Shown: piece by piece, positions 2,783-64,000 of the stretch
How positions within the stretch are numbered: the first letter of the stretch is position 1
How the letters are laid out: each line of letters starts with the position of its first letter
Assembly: GCA_051313645.2 (NCBI GenBank)
Contig: JBNRSN020000003.1
Coordinates: 139,438,001 to 139,502,000, forward strand
Source of the DNA: Centroscyllium fabricii
Lineage: Eukaryota
DNA: 64,000 nt
Direction: 5' to 3'
The notes under the pieces: generated by a model
What the model was told of the DNA's origin: nothing
Databases searched by the model: none
What the model saw: the letters and a program-made list of their open reading frames with translations, nothing else
Translations under genes and position numbers: made by a program

Positions 2783-5700
2783 CTAACAATTCTCGGGTCT
2801 CTCGTCAATGTCCATCTCCTCATCTGATTGAACAGAATCCTCCTGCACCATCATTTCAGGGCCCTCGTCATCAGATGCCACCCTATCGTCCAGGTCCTCC
2901 TGACTCAAAATGGGGTCGAAAACCTGTCCAGATCTCCTAGGAATCGCCTTCCCCTTTCTCGGTTGACCAGGGTGTTGTTTGCGAAAGTCGGAAATGAGCT
3001 TGGGATCCATGATATTCCGAGCAGGGAACCAGGACCTCTCCTCAGGACCATACCCCTCCCAGTCCACTAGGTACTGAAGTCCCTTCCCTCGGCGACGGGA
3101 GTCAAGCAAACGACGGACCGTGTACACTAATCCACCGTCGAGCATACGAGGAGGTGGAGGGGGTGCGGAAACGGGTACTAAGGCACTCTCCTGAGCAGGC
3201 TTGATGCGCGACACGTGAAAAGTCGGGTGGACCCGCATGGAACTGGGGAGCTTGAGTCGTACCGCAGCAGGGTTAATGATCCTTTCTACCACGAACGGTC
3301 CGATAAACCTTGGAGCGAGTTTCTTGGACTCCACTTGTAGAGGCAGATCCTTTGTGGAGAGCCAAACCTTCTGCCCGACCCGATACTCCGGAGCAGTAGA
3401 ACGACGACGGTTGGCCGAAGCCGAGTATCGATCCACCGAGCGAAGCAGCGACATCCGCGCCTGATCCCATGTCCTGTGGCATCGTTGGATGAAGTCTTGG
3501 ACGGACGGACAAGATACCTCCTTCTCCAGATCCGGAAACAATGGAGGCTGGAACCCATAAGCGCACTGAAAGGGCGAAAGTCCTGTAGCGGAACTGGTCA
3601 GCGTGTTGTGCGCATACTCCACCCATAAAAGTAATGTGGACCAGGAAGAGGGATTTTTGGAGACCATGCACCGAAGTGCCTTCTCCATCTCCTGATTCAT
3701 CCTCTCCGATTGTCCATTGGACTGAGGATGGAATCCCGACGACAGACTGACCTTGGCCTCGATGAGACTGCAGAATTCTCTCCAAAATATAGAAGTAAAT
3801 TGGGGACCTCGATCAGAAACCACATCCACCGGAAGCCCATGAAGCCGAAACACGTGCTGCAACATGAGCTCTGCAGTTTCTTTAGCAGAGGGCAGCTTAG
3901 TTAAGGGTATAAAATGTGCCATCTTGCTAAACCTGTCAACCACCGTTAGCACCGTGGTCAGTCCCTTGGATGAGGGTAGTCCTGTGACAAAGTCCAGGGC
4001 TATGTGAGACCAAGGCCGATGGGGTATAGGTAATGGTTGTAGCAGGCCAGCAGGTGCCCGACGAGAAGACTTGTGCTGGTTACAAATCGGACAGGCATTG
4101 ACGAACCTCCGAGTATCCTCCTCTAGCGTGTCCCACCAGAACCTCCGCAAAATCACCTCCTTGGTCCTGAGTGCCCCAGGATGGCAGGACAGCTTGGACG
4201 CATGAGCCCACTGAAGGACATCCGATCGAATGTTCTTCGGCACAAACAAACGGTCGGGAGGACAACCGCTGGGCCCGCCCTGCTCCCCCGCAGCTGCTCT
4301 TACCCTCTCTTCGATCTCCCATGTGACCGCAGCAATATGGCAGGAGGCTGGCAAAATGAGGTCTGGTCCTGGAGCGGAACCCTCCTCCCTCAGAAATAGG
4401 CGTGATAGAGCATCGGGCTTGACGTTGCGGGAGCCAGGCCTGTAGGAGAGAGTGAAGTGGAATCGCGTAAAAAAAAGAGACCACCTAGCCTGACGTGAAT
4501 TTAGTCTTTTGGCCGTACGTATATACTCCAAATTCTTGTGATCCGTCCAAACAAGAAATGGCAGCTTGGTCCCCTCCAGCCAGTGGCGCCACTCCTCTAA
4601 GGCCATCTTGACCGCCAGCAATTCTCTGTCTCCGATATCGTAATTCATCTCTGCCGGTGAAAGACGCTTGGAGAAGAAGGCACATGGATGGATCTTCTGG
4701 TCTGAAGCTGACCTTTGCGACAAGATGGCTCCAACTCCCACATCCGATGCATCCACCTCTACGACAAACTGCTGATCCGGATCAGGCACCTGCAGAATGG
4801 GAGCCGAAGTAAAACGGGACCTCAGTTCCTTAAATGCCTCTTCAGCAGCGATAGACCATCTGAATGGCACCTTAGATGATGTAAGCGCCGATAATGGTGC
4901 CGCTACCGTGCTATAGCCCCGAATAAATCTCCGGTAAAAGTTAGCGAAACCCAAGAACCGTTGTAATTGCTTGCGATTCTCCAGACTAGGCCAAGACGTA
5001 ACGGCTGTCACTTTCTCCGGGTCCATTCGCACGCTCCCCTGCGCAATGATATAACCCAGGAATGAAACGGTGGTTACATGAAATTCACATTTCTCGGCTT
5101 TCACAAATAAGGAGTTTTCTAGGAGCCTTTGTAAAACCGTCTGTACGTGATGGACATGCTCCTCCTGAGTCTTGGAAAATATTAGAATATCGTCCATGTA
5201 CACAAATACAAAAATATTCAGCATGTCCCGAAGAACATCGTTGACCAGGGCTTGAAATACCGCCGGGGCGTTGGTTAACCCGAACGGCATAACGAGATAT
5301 TCGTAATGGCCAGACGGAGTGTTGAAAGCGGTCTTCCACTCATCGCCCTCCCTTATCCGGACCAGATGGTACGCGTTGCGCAGATCCAACTTAGAAAAGA
5401 TGGTAGCTCCCTGAATTAACTCAAATGCTGATGAGATAAGAGGCAGAGGATACCGATTCTTGATAGTGATTTCATTAAGTCCTCTATAATCGATACAAGG
5501 CCGGAGCGAACCGTCCTTCTTACCTACGAAGAAGAATCCTGCCCCTGCTGGTGAAGAGGAAGAACGGATGATCCCAGCAGATATTGAGTCCTCGATATAG
5601 GCCTCCATGGCCTTCCTCTCAGGTGCCGATAGTGAATACAGGCGCCCCCTAGGTGGAGAGGAGCCTGGTAACAAATCAATAGCACAATCGTATGGGCGAT

Positions 5701-6325
5701 GTGGAGGTAGCGAAGTGGCTCTAGCCTTACTAAATACCTCCCTGAAATCATGATACTCGGTGGGAACCGCAGAGAGATCAGAACTGGGAAGAGGTGTGAC
5801 CGACTGACGGCCTCCAGTGGCTTGTTTTAAACAGACTTGGTGACAGGAGTGACTCCAACCCAAAATGGCTCCCGTGTTCCAGTCAATGTGGGGATTGTGA
5901 CGACGAAGCCACGCGTGTCCCAAAATAAGAGGAAGCTGAGGCGAATCCAGGATATGGAACCGAATGCTTTCGTGATGATTCCCTGAAAATAATAAGTGAA
6001 TGGGCGACGTCTGATGAGTGACCGTTCCCAGAAGGTGGCCATCAAGAGCGTTGGCAGCAACCGGTTGCGGCAGTGGACACCGGTCGATCCCCAACTGTGT
6101 AACCAGCTCCTTATCAATAATATTAACATCCGCCCCAGAGTCGATGAATATGGCAAACGTCCGAGATCCTGACGGCAGAAGAAGTCGGGCCTGGCACAAA
6201 GGCCGTGAATTTGAAGAGAGTCTAATCGGAGTTCGGCTCACCAGTACGACTCCCTCTACTGGTGAGTCTGGTCTTTTACCGGACACCTTACGACAAAATG
6301 GCCGGCCTGACCACAGTATAGGCAT
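2783..6325 (-). CDS. pol: Pol polyprotein: aspartic protease, RT, RNase H, integrase, chromodomain
   Basis: 1180-aa uninterrupted ORF: [24 protein letters not shown] zinc finger, [11 protein letters not shown] integrase core, [17 protein letters not shown] chromodomain. Confidence 0.96.
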
Positions 6326-7212
6326 AAACCCTTCCTGCGGCGCCGACTCCGCTCTAATGGCGAGATGCCTGTGCGGCCCAACTGCATGGGTTCGGGAACC
6401 CCTGACGTGGCCGAATCTCTGGGCGCCACGAATCTCTCCTGAACCCGTTTACCAGGATGATGACCCGTTTCTCCCAGTCCTCTCTCACGCTGCCGTGCTT
6501 GGATCCTTAGATCGATCCTCGTAACCAGGCTGATGATCTCATCCAAGGTGGAAGGGAGATTATGTGATACCAACTCATCCTTGATGTACCCAGCCAATCC
6601 ATGAAGGAAAACCTCACATTGGGCAGCCATGTTCCAATTGCTCCGACGAGCCTTAATCCGAAAGTCAATGGCATAATCTACCACAGTCTGATTTCCCTGG
6701 TTCATACTCATGAGGCCCTCAGCCGTTTCCACCTCAAAGGCTACCCTGCCAAAAACCCTTCATAACTCCTCAGAAAATGCTCTGAATGAACTGCATGCCG
6801 GAGTATCTCTCTCCCACTCGGCAGTACCCCAGAGTCTAGCTCTCCCCGAGAGATGGTTGATCATAAACGCTACTCTTGCCCTCTCGCTGGCAAAGGTGCG
6901 TGGTTGTAAGGAAAACAAAATAGAGCAGTTCGTAATGAATGGGTCGCACTGTTCTGGTTCACCAGCATAACGCTCTGGTACCCCAACTCGGGGCTCGGGT
7001 GTGAAGCTCTGTAGTAGAGGCATGGAAACTGATTCGGCTGTTGAATCTGGTTCCGGTGTGGAAGAAGTCCCTGCTGGGTTCGATACTGCGAACGCCCTCA
7101 TGTCGGAGGTTAGCCGTTCTACTTTAGAGAACATATCCCCAAAGGCCCGACCCTGATGCGTTAGGACCTCCTCCATGCGTGCCAGACGTCCCGGTGTGTC
7201 CGCTGGGTTCAT
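6256..7212 (-). pseudogene. gag: gag of copy 2, interrupted by an in-frame stop at 6760-6762
   Basis: ORFs 6760-7254 and 6256-6732 are in the same frame and match the copy 1 Gag. Confidence 0.9.
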
Positions 7213-12965: not shown

Positions 12966-15424
12966 TTTAACCCTGGCTATTCTTCGAAATTAGCATAAGG
13001 AATAAAGATTCAAATCTCAGTTACTTGGTGGAACCTGTTATGAGAAACTCGAACAATGTTACAGTGTCTTTCCCAGTAAAAGAAAACGAGGACCCCTTGA
13101 AAATATAACGGGCCAGAAGTTCGGGTCCCCACTGGTGAGTATGCGCTGGGTACTCATGCGTAGGCCCAACGAAAGTGCCGATTTCATGCATGCACTGCGC
13201 TTCCCTTAAAAGAAGTGATTCACAGGTCGAACGCGTGCGCCGGAGAGGCAGCACGTACGCCTGGAACACCCGTTTTTTTTGCAGCTTTCTCCGGGGGGTA
13301 AGTCTCCAGGAGCTACGCTTGTAAAAAGCAATCGCCACACCTGCTTTTAACAAGGTAAGTGGTGAATTAAGTAAAATTTAAAAAAAAATTCCACAGGTTT
13401 ATTATTTTTAAATACTTTAAAGAAAGGTAAGTTTATTTTTAGCCCCATTAGAAAGTATAATTATTTTTTTCAAAAATTTAAGTTATTGTTTAAAATAGTT
13501 ATTTTATGTAATTTATAGTTATTTTAAAAATGTGATTTAAAAAAAAAACTTATTTGAAGTTTTGGAAATGTTTTGGGGCTGAATTCTATTCATAGATTTG
13601 ACAGGTCTTCCTGTCAAACCTATGAGTACAGATTCCCTGCTACCATTGGCTCTCCATGGCCCACATGATAGAAACATAGAAACATAGAAGATAGGAGCAG
13701 GAGTAGGCTATTTGGCCCCTCGAGCCTGCTCCGCCATTCAATGAGATCATGGCTGATCATCCAAATTCAGTACCCTGTCCCTGCCCTCTCTCCATATCTC
13801 TTGATCCCTTTAACCTTAAGAAATATATCTAAATCCTTCTTGAATATATTTAATGAATTGACCTCTACTGCCTTCTGTGGTAGAGAATTCCACAGAGTCA
13901 CCACTCTCTGGGTGAAGAAATTCCTCCTCATCTCTGTCCTAAATGGTTTAACCCTTATTCTTAGACTGTGATCGCTGGTTCTGGACTCCCCAGCCATCAG
14001 GAACATCCTTCCTGCATCTAGTCTGTCCAGTTCTGTTAGAATTTTATAAGTTTCAATGAGATCTCCTCTCATTCTTCTAAACTCCAGTGAATATAAGCCC
14101 AATCGACCCAATCTCTCCTCATACATCATTCCTTCCATCCCAGGTATCAATCTGGTGAATCTTCGCTGCACTCCCTACATGGCAAGAACATCCTTCCTCA
14201 GATAAGGTGACCAAAACTGCACACAATACTCAAGATGTGGTCTCACCAAGGCCCTGTGCAACTACAGCAAGACATCCTTGTTCCTGTACTCAAACCCTCT
14301 TGCTACGAAGGCCAACATACCATTTGCCTTCTTAACCGCCTGCTGCACTTGCATGCTTCAGCGATTGGTGCACCAGGACACCCAGGTCTTGTTGCACTTC
14401 ACCTTCTCCCAATCTATTGCCATTCAGATAATAATCTGCCTTCCTGTTCTTGCCCCCAAAGTGGATAACCTCAAATTTATCCACATTATATTGCATCTGC
14501 CATGCTTCTGCCCAATCACCCAACCTGTCCAAATCATACTGGATTTTCTCAGCATCCTCCTCACAGCACACACGCTCACCCAGCTTTGTGTCATCTGAAA
14601 ACTTGGAGATTTTACATCTGCTTCCCTCATCCAGATTATTAATATATATTGTGAATAGCTGGGGTCCAAGGACCGATCCCTGCGGTACCTCACTAGTCAC
14701 TGCCTGTCACTTGGAAAAAGACCCATTTATTCCAACTCTTTGCTTTCTGTCTGCCAACCAGTTCTCTATCCAAGTCAATACCTTGCCCCCAATCTCATGT
14801 GCCTTAACTTTACACGCTAATCTCTTATGTGGGACCTTATCGAAAGCTTCTGAAAATCCAAATACACCACTGGTTCTCCCTTATCTATTTTACCAGTTAC
14901 ATCCTCAAAAAATTCCAGTAGATTAGTCAAGCATGATTTACTTTTTGTAAATCCATGTTGACTTTTTCCGATCCTGTCACTGTTTTTTAAGTGCTCAGCT
15001 ATTATATCCATTATAATGGACTCTAGCATTTTCCCCACTAACAATGTCAGGCTTACCGGTCTATAATTCCCCGTTTTCTCTCTACCAACTTTTTTGAATA
15101 GTGGGGTAACATTAGTTACCCTTCCATCAATGGGTACTGTTCCAGAATCTATCGAATTTTGGAAGATGACCAGCAATGCATCCACTATTTCTAGGTCAAC
15201 TTCCTTAAGTACCCTAGGACGTAGATTATCAGGCCCTGGGGATTTATCAGCTTTCAATCCCATCAATTTCCCTAACACCATTTCCTTACAAATATTGATT
15301 TCTTTCAGTTCCTCCCTCTCATTTGACCCTATATTCCCCCAAATCTCTGGGAGGTTGTTTGTGTCCTCCTTTGTGAAGGCAGAACCAAAGTATGTATTTA
15401 ATTGGTCTTCCATTTCTTTGTTCC

Positions 15425-52337: not shown

Positions 52338-53954
52338 TGTAGGGGGTGGCCTGTGGGGGGGGGGGGGAGTGTTTGTCTCTCCGACCCTTTGAGAGGTTTG
52401 AATCGCTTCCACATCCCTACCAAGTTCTAGACTTTGGACTTATTTACAGGTTGCGGTACAGAAAACGAGGAGAACAATTGATTGGTGCAAGCAAACTGTG
52501 AATTTTATTAAAAGTCAAAAATGAGAACTTATTACACAGGGCTATACTTCAAATCACAAGAAAACACATCTGCATACAAAAACACATTAATCAGGAAGGG
52601 GGAACACCCGGCAGAATGAGGGAAAAACACATTTAAACCCTCTACACTGTCCCACCCCCAATTCCTATCTAAATTGCTCATAAGAGAACCAGGGATTATG
52701 CTCACCAAGGGGTTTCGTTGACAGTTCAAAATCTGTCTGTTACAGTCGGTTGCGAGGTTTTGGGCTTTGTTTCTTTGTGTCCTCTGGGGCCTGCTGTCCC
52801 CACGTGGTATGAGTCTCAGACTCGGCGTGAGTCTTTCAGTTGGGTGGAAGTCCGCTGATGCGGTCGGGCACGGTTGTGGATCTGTCCGGGTAAGTACCCA
52901 ATATTCTCCTTTTAGTGGTAGGAGAGTAAAGTCTTTAATGGATACTTTTAGTTGTTAGATGGTTTTACCTTCCGGTGGTAGTCTGGTTGTCGAGGTTGTT
53001 GCGGTTGGGGCTGGGCTGGTGGCATTCGATGTCGGTGGGGTCGCGGTGGCCTGGGTCAATGCCTAGTCGTGGCGTTGACCTTAAGGTAAGGTTTAACCAG
53101 CTCTTGGTTACCGCGATGTTCGTGGTCCTCATGTAGGGCTATGGTTCTGGCCTTGTTGGTTTCGGTCGAGCCTGCCCACGTTGTTGTCTTCCTGCCGCTT
53201 GCCCCTGTGTTGCTTGCTTCTTCCTTGGCTGGCTTCTTATGACTTGGCTTCTTGCTTGGCTTGCTGCTGCTCTGTGTGGCTGGCTGTTGGCTTGCTGCTG
53301 CTCTGCTTACTGTGGACTATGTCTGCAGTTATATTCTTTTTCCAACTCTAATCTACGTGCCAATCAATGCCCATTCTTTGTTCGACTTTTGGCGGGCTTG
53401 TTAAAACAATGAAGGCCATTTACTTTAACTGGTTTTGGGGTGGCAACCTCCTGGTCTAAATGACTTAACAGTGTCTGCATTGTTGGAGTGTTTAATAAGC
53501 ATGGCCCTTAATGGCTGCCTCCCTGGCTCAGGACCATTTGCCATTGTATTTGGAGGCCTGGATGTTTGTTTAAACATGGCCTTAATCAGTTTTGTTCTGG
53601 TTTGAATGTTTTGAATTACTTATTCATTGTCTTTGATGGGTTGTGTAGTCTTCAAGGCTGGAATCTTATGTTTATTGTGTCTGGTTTCGTTTCCCCGCAT
53701 GTCACATTAGAAATCTCTTTTTGAAAGCTGACTTTGCAGGGTTTTGCTTTAAAACTTACAGGCTTTTCCAATTAAAGTCCAAAAAGCTGCATCTTCTTTG
53801 GGATCCCTACAATCAAATGGCCTGTATTGCAGGGGGCATACTGTAGTAATTCTGGTGTTCAAACCCAAAGTTCCTTTTCTGGAGGGTTCCCTTATTCCAA
53901 TTAATGTCCCCTTTATTAAAACTTGGGAGATATGGGAATTTTGAGAGTCCCACA
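52338..53954 (-). mobile_element. Long solo-LTR-like insertion (1617 bp)
   Basis: TG...CA termini; 4-bp TSD CCCG; minus-strand TATAA near 53330 and AATAAA near 52505; no recognisable coding domain. Confidence 0.8.
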
Positions 53955-58146: not shown

Positions 58147-58551
58147 AACATAGAAACATAGAAGATAGGAGCAGGAGTAGGCCATTCGGCCCTTCGAGCC
58201 TGCTCCGCCATTCAATGAGATCATTGCTGATCATCCAAATCCAGCACCCCTTCCCTGCCTTGTCCCCATATCCCTCGATCCCTATCGAGCCTGCACCAAC
58301 ACATATCCCACCCTATCCCCGTAACCCCACATATTCAATCCCCCTAACATTAAGGGTCAATTTATCATGGCCACTCAACCTAACCCGCACATTTTTGGAC
58401 TGTGGGAGGAAACTGGAGCACCCGGAGGAAACCCACGCAGACACGGGGAGAATGTGCAAACTCCACACAGATAGTACCCGAGGCTGGATTTGAACCCGGG
58501 TCTCTAGTGCTGTAAGGCAACAGTGCTAACCACTATGCCACCGTGCCGCCC
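58147..58551 (-). mobile_element. HE1-type SINE
   Basis: Reverse complement of the 47802-48207 family. Confidence 0.92.
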
Positions 58552-60481: not shown

Positions 60482-60850
60482 CAGAAACACAGAAACACAG
60501 AAGATAGGAGCAGGAGTAGGCCATTCGGCCCTTCGAGCATGCCCCGCCATTTTTGATGAGATCATGGCTGATCATCCAAACCCAGCACCCCCCTCCTACC
60601 CTCTCCCCATATCCCCCGATACCCCAATTCTAAGAACTATATCTCACACACATACTCATGGGCAATTTGTAGTATCTCCAATTCACCTAACCTGCATGTC
60701 TTTGGGTGGTGGGAGGAAACCGGAGTACCCGGAGGAAACCCACACGAAAAAGGGGAGAACATGCAAACTCCACGCAGAGAGGTCCCGGGCCAAGCAGGAT
60801 TCGAACCCAGGAGCTCCTTATTGCGAGGCAGCAGTGCTAACCACTCGAGA
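60482..60850 (-). mobile_element. HE1-related SINE variant
   Basis: CR1-type tail, GGAAACCGGAGTACCCGGAGGAAACCCAC core, GGATTCGAACC box B. Confidence 0.8.
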
Positions 60851-60867
60851 GTGCTAACCAGTCGAGA

Positions 60868-61020
60868 AGGGTAAGGGGTGATCTAATAGAGGCTTTTAAG
60901 ATAATGAAGATGTCTGTTAAGGTAAATAGTGATAACTCAATTGTACTGGTCAGCAAGATAGTAATGAGAGGGCATAAATTTCAGATAATCACCAAAAGAG
61001 TTAAAAGGTAAGTTAGAAAT
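60868..61020 (+). mobile_element. Old CR1 3' ORF2 fragment
   Basis: RGDLIEAFKIMK-like coding remnant. Confidence 0.55.
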
Positions 61021-61154
61021 TTGAAGCAGGGTCTTTAATTTCTTTTAAAAAGGAATAAACTGCTTAAAAATAAGTATGTTTATGAATAGGAAAGAGAGTA
61101 GAAAAGTGCAATTAGACTCAGTAGATAGAGAATAATAAGGGGAAAAAAACACTA

Positions 61155-63653
61155 GTGGGTGTAATCTATAGACCTCCCAATAGTTGTGACTCTGTTGGTC
61201 AGAACATAAATCAGCAAATAGTTGAAGCATGTGATAAGGGAACTGCTGTAATCATGGGGGACTTTAACTTTCATATCAACTGGACAAATCAAACTGGGCA
61301 GGGTAGACTAGAGGAAGAGTTTATAGAGTGTATTAGGGATGGGTTCTTAGAACAGTATGTCACTGAACCGACAAGGGGGGAGGCAATCTTAGATCTGGTC
61401 CTGTGTAATGAAGCAGGATTAATTAAAAATGTCATAGTTAGGGACCCTCTTGGAACGAGTGACCACAATATGGTTGAATTCCATATTCAACTAGAGGGGG
61501 AGCAATTTGAAACTCAAACCAGGGTACTTAGTCTAAACAAGGGAGACTATGAAGGTATGAGAACAGAACTGATTAAAGTAGATTGGGATAACGGACTAAA
61601 GAATAAGACGGTACATGAGCAGTGGCGTACTTTTAAGGAGTTAGTGTACAACCTTCAAGAAAAATACATTCCACTGAAGAAAAAAAGGGGTAATGGAAAG
61701 GGCAGCCAACCATGGCTAAGTAAAGTAATAAAGGATAGTATTCGGCTAAAGGCGAGGGCATATAAGGTAGCCAGAGACAGTGGGAAGACAGAAGACTGGG
61801 AAGCATTTAAAAGTCAGCAAAAAATAACAAAGAGATTGATTAAGAAGGGGAAAATAGAGTATGAAAGTAACTTAGCGAAAAACATAAAAACAAATAGCAA
61901 GAGTTTTTATAGTTATATAAAAAGAAAAAGGGTGGCTAAGGTGAATGTTGGTCCATTGGAGGGTGAGACTGGGAATTTGTTGGTGGGGAACATGGAGATG
62001 GCAAAAGCATTAAATGAATATTTTGTATCAGTCTTTACCGTAGAAGACATTAAAAATATTCCAACGCTGGATAAACAGGGGGCTATAGGAATGGAGGAGC
62101 TAAACACTATTAAGATCACTAAGGAGATGGTATTAGGTAAATTAATGGGACTTAAGGCGGATAAATCCCCTGGGCCTGATGGATTACATCCTCGGGTCTT
62201 GAGAGAAATAGCGGTGGGGATTGTGGATGCATTGGTGATAATTTTCCAAAGCTCCCTGGAGACAGGAAGGGTCCCGGTGGATTGGAAAATGGCTAATGTA
62301 ACACCTATATTTAAAAAGGGAAGTAGACAGAAGGCTGGTAACTATAGACCGGTTAGTCTAACATCTGTGGTGGGTAAAATGTTAGAGACCATTATTAAAG
62401 AAACACTGACGGGGCACTTGGATAAACATGACTTAATCGGACAGAGTCAGCATGGTTTTACGAAGGGGAAGTCATGTTTAACTAATTTGCTCGAATTCTT
62501 TGAGGAAGTAACATCTCGGGTGGATAAAGGGGAACCGGTGGATGTGGTATACTTGGACTTCCAAAAGGCTTTTGACAAGGTGCCACATAAGAGACTATTG
62601 CTTAAAATAAAAAATTATGGGATTGGGGGAAATATATTAGCATGGGTAGAGGATTGGCTTTCAAACAGGAAGCAGAGAGTTGGGATAAATGGTTCATACT
62701 CGGGATGGCAATCGGTGAATAGCGGTGTTCCGCAGGGGTCGGTGCTGGGACCCCAGCTGTTTACAATCTATATAAATGATTTGGAGGAGGGGACCAAGTG
62801 TAATATATCAAAGTTTGCAGATGACACAAAAATGGGAGGAAAAGCAGGGAGTGAGGAGGACAGAAAAAGCCTGCAAAAGGATATAGATAAGCTAGGTGAT
62901 TGGGCAGCAACCTGGCAGATGAAATTTAATACTGACAAATGTGAAGTTATACACTTTGGAAGAAAAAATCATAGGGCAAGTTATTTTCTAAATGGGGAGG
63001 AGCTGCGTTGTAATACAACGCAAAGGGACCTGGGGGTATTAGTGCATGAATCACAAAAAGTTAGTATGCAGGTGCAGCAAGTGATTAGGAAGGCCAATGG
63101 AATCTTAGCCTTTATTGCTAGGGGGATAGAGTATAAAAACAGGGAGGTCTTGCTGCAGCTGTACACAGTATTGGTGAGACCGCATTTGGAATACTGTGTG
63201 CAGTTTTGGTGTCCATACTTAAGAAATGATGTACTTGCCCTGGAGGCAGTGCAGAGAAGGTTTACACGGTTAATTCCAGCGATGAGGGGGTTGACATATG
63301 AGGAAAGGTTAAGTAGGTTGGGACTCTACTCTTTAGAGTTCAGAAGAATGAGAGGCGATCTTATTGAAACGTATAAGATCGTGAGGGGCCTTGATCGGGT
63401 GGATGCGCCAAGGATGTTTCCAATGATCGGGGAGACCAGAACTAGGGGGCATAGTCTTAGAATAAGGGGGGGCTCTTTTAAAACTGAGATGAGGAGAAAC
63501 TTCTTCACCCAGAGGGTGGTTAATCTATGGAATTCACTGCCCCAGGGAGCTGTGGAAGAGGGAACATTAAATAAATTTAAAACCGAAATAGACTGTTTTT
63601 TAGCTGACAAGGGAATTAAGGGTTACGGGGAGCGGGCAGGGAAGTGGACCTGA
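61155..63653 (+). CDS. CR1 ORF2 (C-terminal endonuclease part + reverse transcriptase)
   Basis: 832 aa open: YRPP, MGDFN, SDHN, NYRPVSLT, LDFQKAFD, PQGSVLGP, FADD; begins inside the endonuclease domain, so no genuine start codon. Confidence 0.93.
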   Translation: MGVIYRPPNSCDSVGQNINQQIVEACDKGTAVIMGDFNFHINWTNQTGQGRLEEEFIECIRDGFLEQYVTEPTRGEAILDLVLCNEAGLIKNVIVRDPLGTSDHNMVEFHIQLEGEQFETQTRVLSLNKGDYEGMRTELIKVDWDNGLKNKTVHEQWRTFKELVYNLQEKYIPLKKKRGNGKGSQPWLSKVIKDSIRLKARAYKVARDSGKTEDWEAFKSQQKITKRLIKKGKIEYESNLAKNIKTNSKSFYSYIKRKRVAKVNVGPLEGETGNLLVGNMEMAKALNEYFVSVFTVEDIKNIPTLDKQGAIGMEELNTIKITKEMVLGKLMGLKADKSPGPDGLHPRVLREIAVGIVDALVIIFQSSLETGRVPVDWKMANVTPIFKKGSRQKAGNYRPVSLTSVVGKMLETIIKETLTGHLDKHDLIGQSQHGFTKGKSCLTNLLEFFEEVTSRVDKGEPVDVVYLDFQKAFDKVPHKRLLLKIKNYGIGGNILAWVEDWLSNRKQRVGINGSYSGWQSVNSGVPQGSVLGPQLFTIYINDLEEGTKCNISKFADDTKMGGKAGSEEDRKSLQKDIDKLGDWAATWQMKFNTDKCEVIHFGRKNHRASYFLNGEELRCNTTQRDLGVLVHESQKVSMQVQQVIRKANGILAFIARGIEYKNREVLLQLYTVLVRPHLEYCVQFWCPYLRNDVLALEAVQRRFTRLIPAMRGLTYEERLSRLGLYSLEFRRMRGDLIETYKIVRGLDRVDAPRMFPMIGETRTRGHSLRIRGGSFKTEMRRNFFTQRVVNLWNSLPQGAVEEGTLNKFKTEIDCFLADKGIKGYGERAGKWT

Positions 63654-63719
63654 GTTATGGTTAGTATAGTAAGACCTGAGTGATCTCCTGGACAAGTTTC
63701 GATCGCCTGGATTGGGGTC

Positions 63720-63787
63720 GGAGAGGAATTTCCCGGATTTATTTTCCCAAATTGGACCTGGGTTTTTATCCGGTTTTTCGCCTCTCC
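63720..63787 (+). other. Double-ENE-like RNA structure in the CR1 3' UTR
   Basis: Stems GGAGAGG/CCTCTCC, CCGGAT/ATCCGG and CCCA/TGGG separated by two U-rich internal loops. Confidence 0.6.
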
Positions 63788-64000
63788 CAGGAGATCACAA
63801 GGTTCTTTGGGTGGGAGAAGGGTGATAGTGGTACGAAGGTTAGGGTAGGATCAGCAACGATCTTGATGGGGAGGGGGTGGGCTCGGGGGGCCGATGGCCT
63901 ACTCCTGCTCCTATTTCTGGGGTTCTAGTGTTCTTGTGTTCCTGTGTTCTTGTGTCTTCTGTTCTTGTGCTATTGTGTTGTGTTCTTGTGTTCAGCCATG

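What the first reader, a model, noticed from the sequence alone, without database searches (positions are those of the whole stretch)
63680..63798. Double-ENE-like (triple-helix-forming) module in the 3' UTR of a young CR1 LINE
Seen: GGAGAGG(63720-26)-AATTTC-CCGGAT(63733-38)-TTATTTT-CCCA-loop-TGGG(63759-62)-TTTTT-ATCCGG(63768-73)-TTTTTCG-CCTCTCC(63781-87). This gives three stems and two U-rich internal loops, enclosed by GTGATCTCCTGG(63680)/CCAGGAGATCAC(63787). It lies just after the ORF2 stop and is absent from the 3' UTR of the older CR1 at 13668-13770. Known: ENEs (KSHV PAN, MALAT1, double ENEs of plant and fungal transposons) have this architecture and clamp poly(A) in U-A-U triplexes. Inference: an acquired RNA-stabilising element in a vertebrate LINE whose genomic copies end in a microsatellite rather than poly(A), so the identity of the third strand is an open question.
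Basis: partly seen in the sequence, partly recalled or inferred. Interest (0 to 1): 0.75.

Follow-up and report, generated by a model that had tools for sequence, protein, structure and literature searches.

The report
Poly(A)-clamp-like RNA module in shark-type LINE
A jumping gene (CR1 LINE), likely from a cartilaginous fish, carries in its tail a 119-base module that recurs in related copies and is predicted to fold like the viral and plant RNA elements that grip the poly(A) tail; it likely protects the transposon's RNA from decay, which is untested and would be new for this class of transposon.

Summary
63680-63798 folds as described (z = -4.1) and is the only double U-rich-loop structure in 4,260 folded windows, with 0 in 1,000 shuffles. 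It lies in a ~187-nt 3' UTR segment of a CR1 LINE whose ORF2 groups with chondrichthyan CR1s. Contigs from four coded organisms carry it. Stems stay almost unchanged, indels fall in loops or runs, one pair switches G-C/A-U on a single contig, and the A that interrupts the upper U-tract is usually U or absent. In diverged copies homology begins sharply at the module's edge. The upper domain's 3' strand is identical over 11 nt to the KSHV PAN ENE. Against a textbook double ENE: the lower loop offers only U3/U5, the adenosine triad is missing, and one frequent variant breaks a pair. No A-rich tract is encoded downstream, and neither transcription nor a poly(A) tail was shown. Best reading (0.6): a PAN-type ENE with a weak second domain that clamps a post-transcriptional poly(A) tail and stabilises CR1 RNA. 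I found no ENE reported in a LINE, but could not read the 2016 catalogue.

The parts
61125..63653 (+). CR1 ORF2 (endonuclease + reverse transcriptase), 842 codons open to the stop, 5'-truncated
   Evidence: matches P0001 from residue 117 at 91%; clade with Mobula and Chiloscyllium CR1 proteins, support 96/91
63654..63992 (+). CR1 3' UTR including the ~187-nt extra segment, tail hairpin and microsatellite
63680..63798 (+). ENE-like module (three-way junction); enclosing 12-bp stem 63680-91/63787-98
   Evidence: homology edge of diverged copies at 63678-63680 (tables 7 and 8)
63692..63720 (+). 8-nt linker plus side hairpin 63700-63720; conserved, role unexplained
   Evidence: only loop or run changes at 63696, 63709, 63712, 63714 among the rows shown
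63721..63732 (+). 5' strand of lower stem (63721-26) and lower loop (AAUUUC, only U3)
63733..63749 (+). 5' strand of middle stem (63733-38), upper U-tract (63739-45; A63741 mostly U or absent in other copies) and upper stem (63746-49)
63759..63773 (+). 3' strand of upper stem, U5 and middle stem; 63761-63771 is identical to 11 nt of the KSHV PAN ENE 3' strand
63772..63786 (+). second GG-U5-NN-CC unit: 3' strand of the lower loop and lower stem
63868..63911 (+). terminal hairpin of the CR1 tail shared with the other CR1/SINE tails in the window; likely the ORF2p recognition site
   Evidence: role inferred from PMC4176376
63922..63993 (+). terminal 8-nt microsatellite, 9.5 copies; no poly(A)
60865..61126 (+). 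decayed end of an older CR1 into whose 3' UTR the young copy inserted; its tail resumes at 63993-64000

Best explanation
The module is a conserved element in the 3' UTR of a likely chondrichthyan CR1 LINE that is predicted to fold with two U-lined internal loops and likely works as an ENE: the upper loop would clamp a poly(A) tail, presumed to be added after transcription, in about five U-A-U triples, the lower loop would add at most three, and this would slow deadenylation and nuclear decay of the intronless LINE RNA. Steps: (1) shown: sequence, position, and presence in related copies and four coded organisms; (2) predicted and partly supported by variation: the secondary structure; (3) inferred from likeness to the PAN ENE: triplex with A-minor contacts in the G-C pairs beneath the loop; (4) inferred, no data here: CR1 RNA is polyadenylated beyond the microsatellite although the tail is not copied into DNA; (5) inferred from Evade in Arabidopsis: more stable RNA gives more transposition, which explains retention.
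For: Fold and chance controls. U-runs face U-runs, which an inverted duplication cannot produce (sequence). The unit GG-U5-NN-CC occurs twice in the 128 kb of both window strands, both times in this module and in tandem, and twice in 471,610 bases of fetched loci; the upper copy equals the PAN ENE 3' strand over 11 nt (Table S1); 9,763, 12, 509 and 1 contigs of organisms A, C, D and E were laid on the stretch, and the module is covered in all four (E only to 63768). Among the 40 substitution rows shown, none lies in the 36 nt of the enclosing and lower stems, against 28 of 232 flanking positions (P about 0.01). G63735A and C63771T turn a G-C pair into A-U and stand together on one contig (X10 record 12); each fold is kept. 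A63741 is U in 67-88% of summed depth in three runs and deleted in the fourth. All 6 module indel sites shown are in loops or homopolymer runs. 53 contigs in X1 and 1 in X10 begin homology at 63680; X10 record 12 differs at 7 letters and 5 gaps over the module while its 195 upstream letters do not align at 80%. G-C pairs flank both loops, a feature needed for triplex formation in Evade (PMC12501189).
Against: No transcription, 3' end or poly(A) tail was seen: all four runs are contigs, no poly(A) loose end is among the 18 shown (317 hidden), and the one RNA-library contig may be DNA. No AAUAAA or AUUAAA lies downstream of the stop. The lower loop has only U3 on the 5' side. G63735T, 12.5% of X1 depth in 26 contigs, breaks a middle-stem pair with no compensating row shown. 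Only one compensatory pair was found and both positions are CpG-type transitions. Overall module variation (7 of 119) against flanks (28 of 232) is not significant (P = 0.09), nor is U-tract constancy alone (P = 0.31). U63744 is C in 39-85% of depth. Ten substitution rows were hidden, summed contig depth is a crude frequency, and alignment edges under-report changes. The antisense strand folds nearly as well (-56 against -59). The side arm is conserved but unexplained. Module-less CR1 families coexist, so it is not essential.
Confidence: 0.6

Rival explanations
1. A structured protein-binding platform: the three-way junction and U-rich loops bind a LINE protein or a host factor (export, packaging, translation) and form no triplex with poly(A).
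For: The linker and side hairpin are as conserved as the U-loop arm and have no counterpart in the ENEs I could compare. Stringent LINEs use 3' UTR stem-loops for protein recognition (PMC4176376). No poly(A) was seen.
Against: The usual tail hairpin is present separately and is shared with module-less copies. The PAN-identical strand and facing U-tracts are not predicted by this reading. The CUGG loop that might suggest a Smaug/ZCCHC14-type site (consensus recalled) is lost by G63709A in 60% of X1 depth.
Confidence: 0.2
2. A triplex forms, but the third strand is not the RNA's own poly(A) tail: it is an A-rich stretch of ORF2, of flanking read-through sequence, or of another RNA in trans.
For: Genomic CR1 copies lack poly(A) (PMC13343379; PMC2734521). 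ORF2 has five A-runs of 6-7.
Against: The longest A-run after the stop is 3 and the nearest run of 6 or more is about 720 nt upstream, too short to span two domains. The U-tracts carry no fixed G/C register mark of the MALAT1 type. No tRNA-like element is evident downstream (no Rfam match).
Confidence: 0.08
3. A neutral fold-back insertion that hitch-hiked with successful CR1 subfamilies; the U-runs come from slippage and high identity reflects recent exchange of 3' UTRs.
For: Overall conservation is not significantly above the flanks. Run lengths vary. A module-less copy is closer in ORF2 (X10 record 10, 19 differences in 131 nt) than a module-bearing one (record 12), which fits exchange or loss.
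Against: A fold-back gives A opposite U, not U opposite U. Homology stops at the structural edge. The architecture is absent from 1,000 shuffles. The compensated pair and loop-confined indels point to selection on structure.
Confidence: 0.07
4. A self-cleaving ribozyme, or a set of RNA polymerase III stop signals (T-runs) that hinder SINEs from using this tail.
For: Three T-runs of 4-5 on the sense strand; retroelements do carry ribozymes (general knowledge).
Against: No Rfam family matches the module even at E <= 10. Cleavage upstream of the tail would remove the priming end. SINE tails in the window use only the downstream part, so T-runs here would not affect them.
Confidence: 0.04

Closest known systems
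KSHV PAN RNA ENE (single domain)
   Same: Upper domain: U5 on the 3' strand between GG and AUCC, identical over 11 nt; G-C pairs beneath the loop; close to the presumed 3' end; no encoded A-tract.
   Different: The 5' strand has an extra AU that can pair with the 3' AU (a bulge in PAN) and U5-7; there is a second loop below and a three-way junction with a side hairpin; the host is a LINE, not a viral nuclear RNA; untested.
Double ENE of rice hAT transposon TWIFB1 and plant/fungal TE dENEs (Tycowski 2016; Torabi 2021), including the Evade ENE
   Same: Two U-lined loops separated by a short helix; upper domain PAN-like and the stronger one; 3' UTR of an intronless transposon RNA.
   Different: Middle helix 6 bp against about 10; no AAA triad or pocket motif in it; lower loop U3/U5 with a 2-nt CG instead of U4/U5 with a 3-nt AAC bulge; non-LTR element in a vertebrate.
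MALAT1 / MEN-beta ENE+A
   Same: Vertebrate; U-rich internal loop near the 3' end.
   Different: No encoded A-rich tract, no tRNA-like processing element, no C/G register mark.
Stickleback retroviral ENEs (the only vertebrate TE ENEs named in PMC7583470)
   Same: Fish retroelement.
   Different: LTR/retroviral rather than LINE; I could not see their sequences.
HER1 LINE / HE1 V-SINE tail of sharks and rays; UnaL2 and ZfL2 tail stem-loops
   Same: The window's CR1 shares its terminal tail with V-SINE-like copies in the window; the HER1/HE1 pair is listed in PMC3747384. Assignment of the window's tails to HER1/HE1 is recalled, not tested.
   Different: The module is an extra segment upstream of that tail and is missing from those copies.

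Membership tests
ENE (general) | Stem-loop with an internal loop U-rich on both strands, flanked by short helices | tested here: met
   (predicted fold); variation pattern
ENE (general) | G-C pairs next to the loop for A-minor contacts | tested here: met
   G63725-C63782 and G63726-C63781 under the lower loop; G63736-C63770 two pairs under the upper loop, with no variant shown
ENE (general) | [quoted passage not shown] | tested here: inconclusive
   124 nt from the terminal microsatellite; transcription and poly(A) not shown; no downstream hexamer
ENE (general) | Forms U-A-U triples with oligo(A) and stabilises a reporter RNA | not testable with these tools
   needs binding and reporter assays
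Double ENE (TWIFB1 type) | Two U-rich loops separated by a short helix; upper domain PAN-like | tested here: met
Double ENE (TWIFB1 type) | Lower domain with a 3-4-nt bulge and an interrupted A-minor stem (PMC7583470) | tested here: not met
   2-nt CG opposite AA; lower stem is an uninterrupted 6 bp; only U3 on the 5' strand
Double ENE (TWIFB1 type) | Conserved adenosine triad and 3'-end pocket (PMC13541005) | tested here: not met
   the middle helix has no AAA, unlike TWIFB1; the only AAA is at the apical loop
MALAT1-type ENE+A | Genomically encoded A-rich tract and tRNA-like element downstream | tested here: not met
   longest A-run after the stop is 3; no Rfam match
CR1 LINE (host) | APE + RT ORF2, microsatellite 3' end without poly(A), groups with CR1 proteins | tested here: met
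   the tree held only relatives found and no L2 outgroup
Known ribozymes and other Rfam RNAs | Match to a curated covariance model | tested here: not met
   0 hits at gathering in the window; 2 weak hits at E <= 10 in 63500-64000, both outside the module. I did not check whether Rfam holds an ENE model.

The most novel reading that the evidence does not exclude
This is the first ENE in a non-LTR retrotransposon: cartilaginous-fish CR1 RNAs carry a poly(A) tail that is never copied into DNA, and a transferable cassette clamps it, both stabilising the RNA and hiding the tail so that ORF2p primes in the microsatellite. The cassette has been exchanged between CR1 lineages as a fitness module and helped CR1 reach its very large share of shark and ray genomes.
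Probability: 0.25. Interest if true: 0.88.

Novelty: new variant of a known kind. Interest (0 to 1): 0.7.

Why it matters
ENEs are described from viruses, MALAT1-type RNAs, and plant, fungal, slime-mould and stickleback-retroviral transposons (PMC7583470); none of my ten literature searches showed one in a LINE. A functional ENE in CR1 would extend poly(A) clamping to the dominant retrotransposon group of sharks and rays (CR1-group elements make up 22-34% of their genomes, PMC13343379). It would also make testable how microsatellite-ended LINE RNAs end: an ENE only makes sense if the RNA has a poly(A) tail that the DNA copies never show. Natural families with and without the module in the same genomes give a built-in comparison. 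Because every insertion carries the module, it could also affect host transcripts that end near a sense-strand copy (inference).

Tried and rejected
No genome is held for the window. Pattern scans for the module found nothing in viral contigs, metagenome contigs or prokaryotic genomes; a looser pattern gave 52 matches that I took as chance from their titles and did not examine one by one. Searches by the ORF2 C-terminus returned only distant CR1s: 80 loci from 4 of 64 parts of the metagenome collection, 10 from genomes, none from viral contigs. None holds the module by blastn or by a one-sequence covariance model over 91 sources, which is a weak model. Of those 90 loci, 73 matched the C-terminus and 62 had at least 200 nt of flank; 28 were dropped from the descriptor count. 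Two single U-loop hits looked at (L119; window 53700-53815) fold no better than shuffles (z = -0.34 and 0.50) and were rejected as chance. A Smaug/ZCCHC14-type loop and a pseudoknot between the apical loop and the side hairpin were rejected because the letters vary. X15 has no cover past 63768, and contig depth cannot rank parts; neither was used as evidence. Earlier findings of this scan held nothing on this element; one search listed ENE-like notes from fungal LTRs, phages and archaea that do not bear on it. Tycowski 2012 and 2016, Torabi 2021 (PNAS) and Swain 2021 are not held, and I did not request Torabi 2021 (Science); their supplements may list a LINE ENE.

Full report
1. Observation. 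Folding 63670-63810 gives the proposed structure as both MFE and centroid, -59 kcal/mol, z = -4.10, with 1 of 200 shuffles as stable. Stem pairs have probability 0.84-1.0 and the U-tracts stay open, apart from a possible A63741-U63765 pair. The fold survives in the context of the last 744 nt of the element. Corrections: the lower stem is 6 bp, and an 8-nt linker and a side hairpin (63692-63720) make the module a three-way junction. A descriptor for two nested U-lined loops fires once in 4,260 windows of 120 nt on both strands, here; in 0 of 1,000 shuffles of the module; and in 0 of 62 3' flanks of distant CR1s. Single U-lined loops are commoner (9 in the window, 30 of 1,000 shuffles), so it is the double arrangement in a very stable frame that exceeds chance. 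I wrote the descriptor after seeing the element, which favours it.

2. Host element. ORF 61125-63653 has endonuclease and RT domains. It is 5'-truncated and open to its stop, 91% identical to an unnamed protein, and groups with Mobula and Chiloscyllium proteins (96/91), apart from turtle, bird and frog CR1s. The host is therefore likely a cartilaginous fish. The copy is nested in the 3' UTR of an older CR1 remnant whose tail resumes at 63993. It ends in 9.5 copies of an 8-nt repeat with no poly(A), as is usual for CR1 (PMC13343379 and PMC2734521, passages). Against the four other CR1-type tails in the window it has about 187 extra bases holding the module. The older CR1 at 13.7-16.9 kb has frameshifts and is 74% identical at the C-terminus.

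3. Related copies. Public prokaryotic, viral and metagenome collections gave no copy. The run index listed 20 holders in 10 studies; I laid 4 of the 24 listed runs, from four coded organisms, at 80% likeness (9,763, 12, 509 and 1 contigs). All cover the module, the last only to 63768. Of 40 substitution rows shown (10 hidden), 8 rows at 7 positions fall in the module. None is in the 36 nt of the enclosing and lower stems, against 28 of 232 flank positions (P about 0.01), though the module as a whole is not significantly quieter than the flanks (P = 0.09). G63735A and C63771T convert a G-C pair to A-U and occur together on X10 record 12. G63735A without its partner would cost 6 kcal/mol, both together 1.5. 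Both are CpG-type transitions, but the opposite-strand partners are rare (C63734T 2% in X1; G63772A not shown). A63741, which interrupts the upper U-tract in the window, is U in 70%, 67% and 88% of summed depth in X1, X10 and X13 and deleted in X15. All six indel sites shown are in loops or runs. The reconstructed X10 record 12 form keeps the same fold. Against: G63735T (12.5% of X1 depth) breaks a pair with no partner shown; U63744C is common; summed depth is a crude measure.

4. Boundaries. The eight longest X1 pieces listed all span 63671-63680 to 63795-63804, several with 70-240 unaligned flanking letters. 53 X1 contigs and one X10 contig start at 63680 with a different upstream sequence that reads as another CR1 ORF2 end and tail start. 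Other contigs leave at 63655 into a module-less tail. X10 record 12 has the module at 7 differences and 5 gaps while its upstream 195 letters fail the 80% threshold, whereas module-less record 10 matches ORF2 at 19 differences in 131 nt. So the module is a unit better conserved than neighbouring coding DNA between some subfamilies, and its presence does not follow ORF2 likeness. Loss or exchange would both explain this; the contrast rests on two contigs.

5. Comparison with ENE sequences. Table S1 of PMC10855403 (supplement read) prints the PAN ENE and TWIFB1 dENE. PAN's 3' strand has GG-U5-AU-CC; window 63761-63771 is identical over these 11 nt, and a second unit of the same geometry follows directly at 63772-63782. 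This pattern occurs nowhere else on either strand of the window and twice in 471,610 bases of fetched loci. The 5' strand also reads as two similar units, so the two domains may have arisen by duplication (inference). The upper domain can give about five triples. The lower one has AAUUUC where PAN has U5, so at most three canonical triples. The TWIFB1 features, a 3-nt bulge and an AAA triad with end pocket (PMC7583470 section 3.4; PMC13541005 passages), are absent. The element therefore resembles an ENE but should not be filed as a TWIFB1-type double ENE.

6. Mechanism. Shown: sequence, position, recurrence, lack of an encoded A-tract (longest A-run after the stop is 3, no downstream polyadenylation hexamer). 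Predicted: the fold. Inferred: CR1 is transcribed as an intronless RNA, is polyadenylated at or beyond its microsatellite, and folds the tail back into the upper loop, with A-minor contacts in the middle helix and a weaker second hold below; this slows deadenylation and raises the supply of template. In Evade, deleting an ENE lowers RNA stability and new insertions (PMC12501189, abstract, first part and passages). Nothing here shows transcription or a tail: the runs are contigs, X13 is only guessed to be RNA, and X15's single contig may be DNA. A review declines to generalise on how non-LTR transcripts terminate (PMC2881922, passage). I put this reading at 0.6, a protein platform at 0.2, another third strand at 0.08, neutrality at 0.07, and a ribozyme or terminator at 0.04. 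The conserved side arm is not explained by any of them except the platform reading, and both could hold.

7. Novelty. Ten literature searches showed no ENE in a LINE or in sharks; most results were seen as listings and abstract starts only. Reviews name plants, fungi, slime mould and stickleback retroviruses and a strong association with LTR elements. I could not read the primary 2016 catalogue or its supplements, so a listed non-LTR case is not excluded. Other papers seen as passages only: PMC4176376, PMC11625349, PMC8704770, PMC5499810, PMC12834306, PMC3747384, PMC12846552. Rfam has no match. Verdict: a real, conserved structure; a new variant of a known kind; function untested; interest 0.70.

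Noticed in passing
window:60865-61126 and 63993-64000 (+): The young CR1 sits inside the tail of an older, decayed CR1; the interrupted tail motif resumes right after the microsatellite, with at most 1-2 shared letters and no clear target-site duplication.
   Followed up: partly
window:63692-63720 (+): The linker and side hairpin of the three-way junction are conserved across laid contigs but have no counterpart in PAN or TWIFB1; possibly a second functional part.
   Followed up: partly
joints 63704-63712 to 63772-63784: Eleven contigs align on both sides but not across the U-loop arm, suggesting much more diverged versions of the arm whose letters were not shown.
   Followed up: no
window:48083-48203 (+), 58147-58259 (-), 60483-60605 (-): Three SINE-like copies share the module-less CR1 tail at 85-93% with the older CR1; the one near 60.5-60.85 kb looks like a V-SINE (label recalled).
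   Followed up: partly
window:59000-60200: Long G-rich tandem array of roughly 20-nt units, with G-quadruplex potential.
   Followed up: no
window:3-35176: Dense cluster of Ty3/gypsy-type LTR elements with long open frames, one with a chromodomain integrase (2783-6448, minus).
   Followed up: no
window:63566-63575 (+): Overlapping ATTAAA/AATAAA inside the end of ORF2, upstream of the module; use of it would cut the module off. The closest protein (P0001) has a different residue there.
   Followed up: partly
L133, L135, L136, L138, L139, L142; P0020: Animal CR1 fragments occur on short contigs of bacterial isolate assemblies, likely contamination.
   Followed up: no
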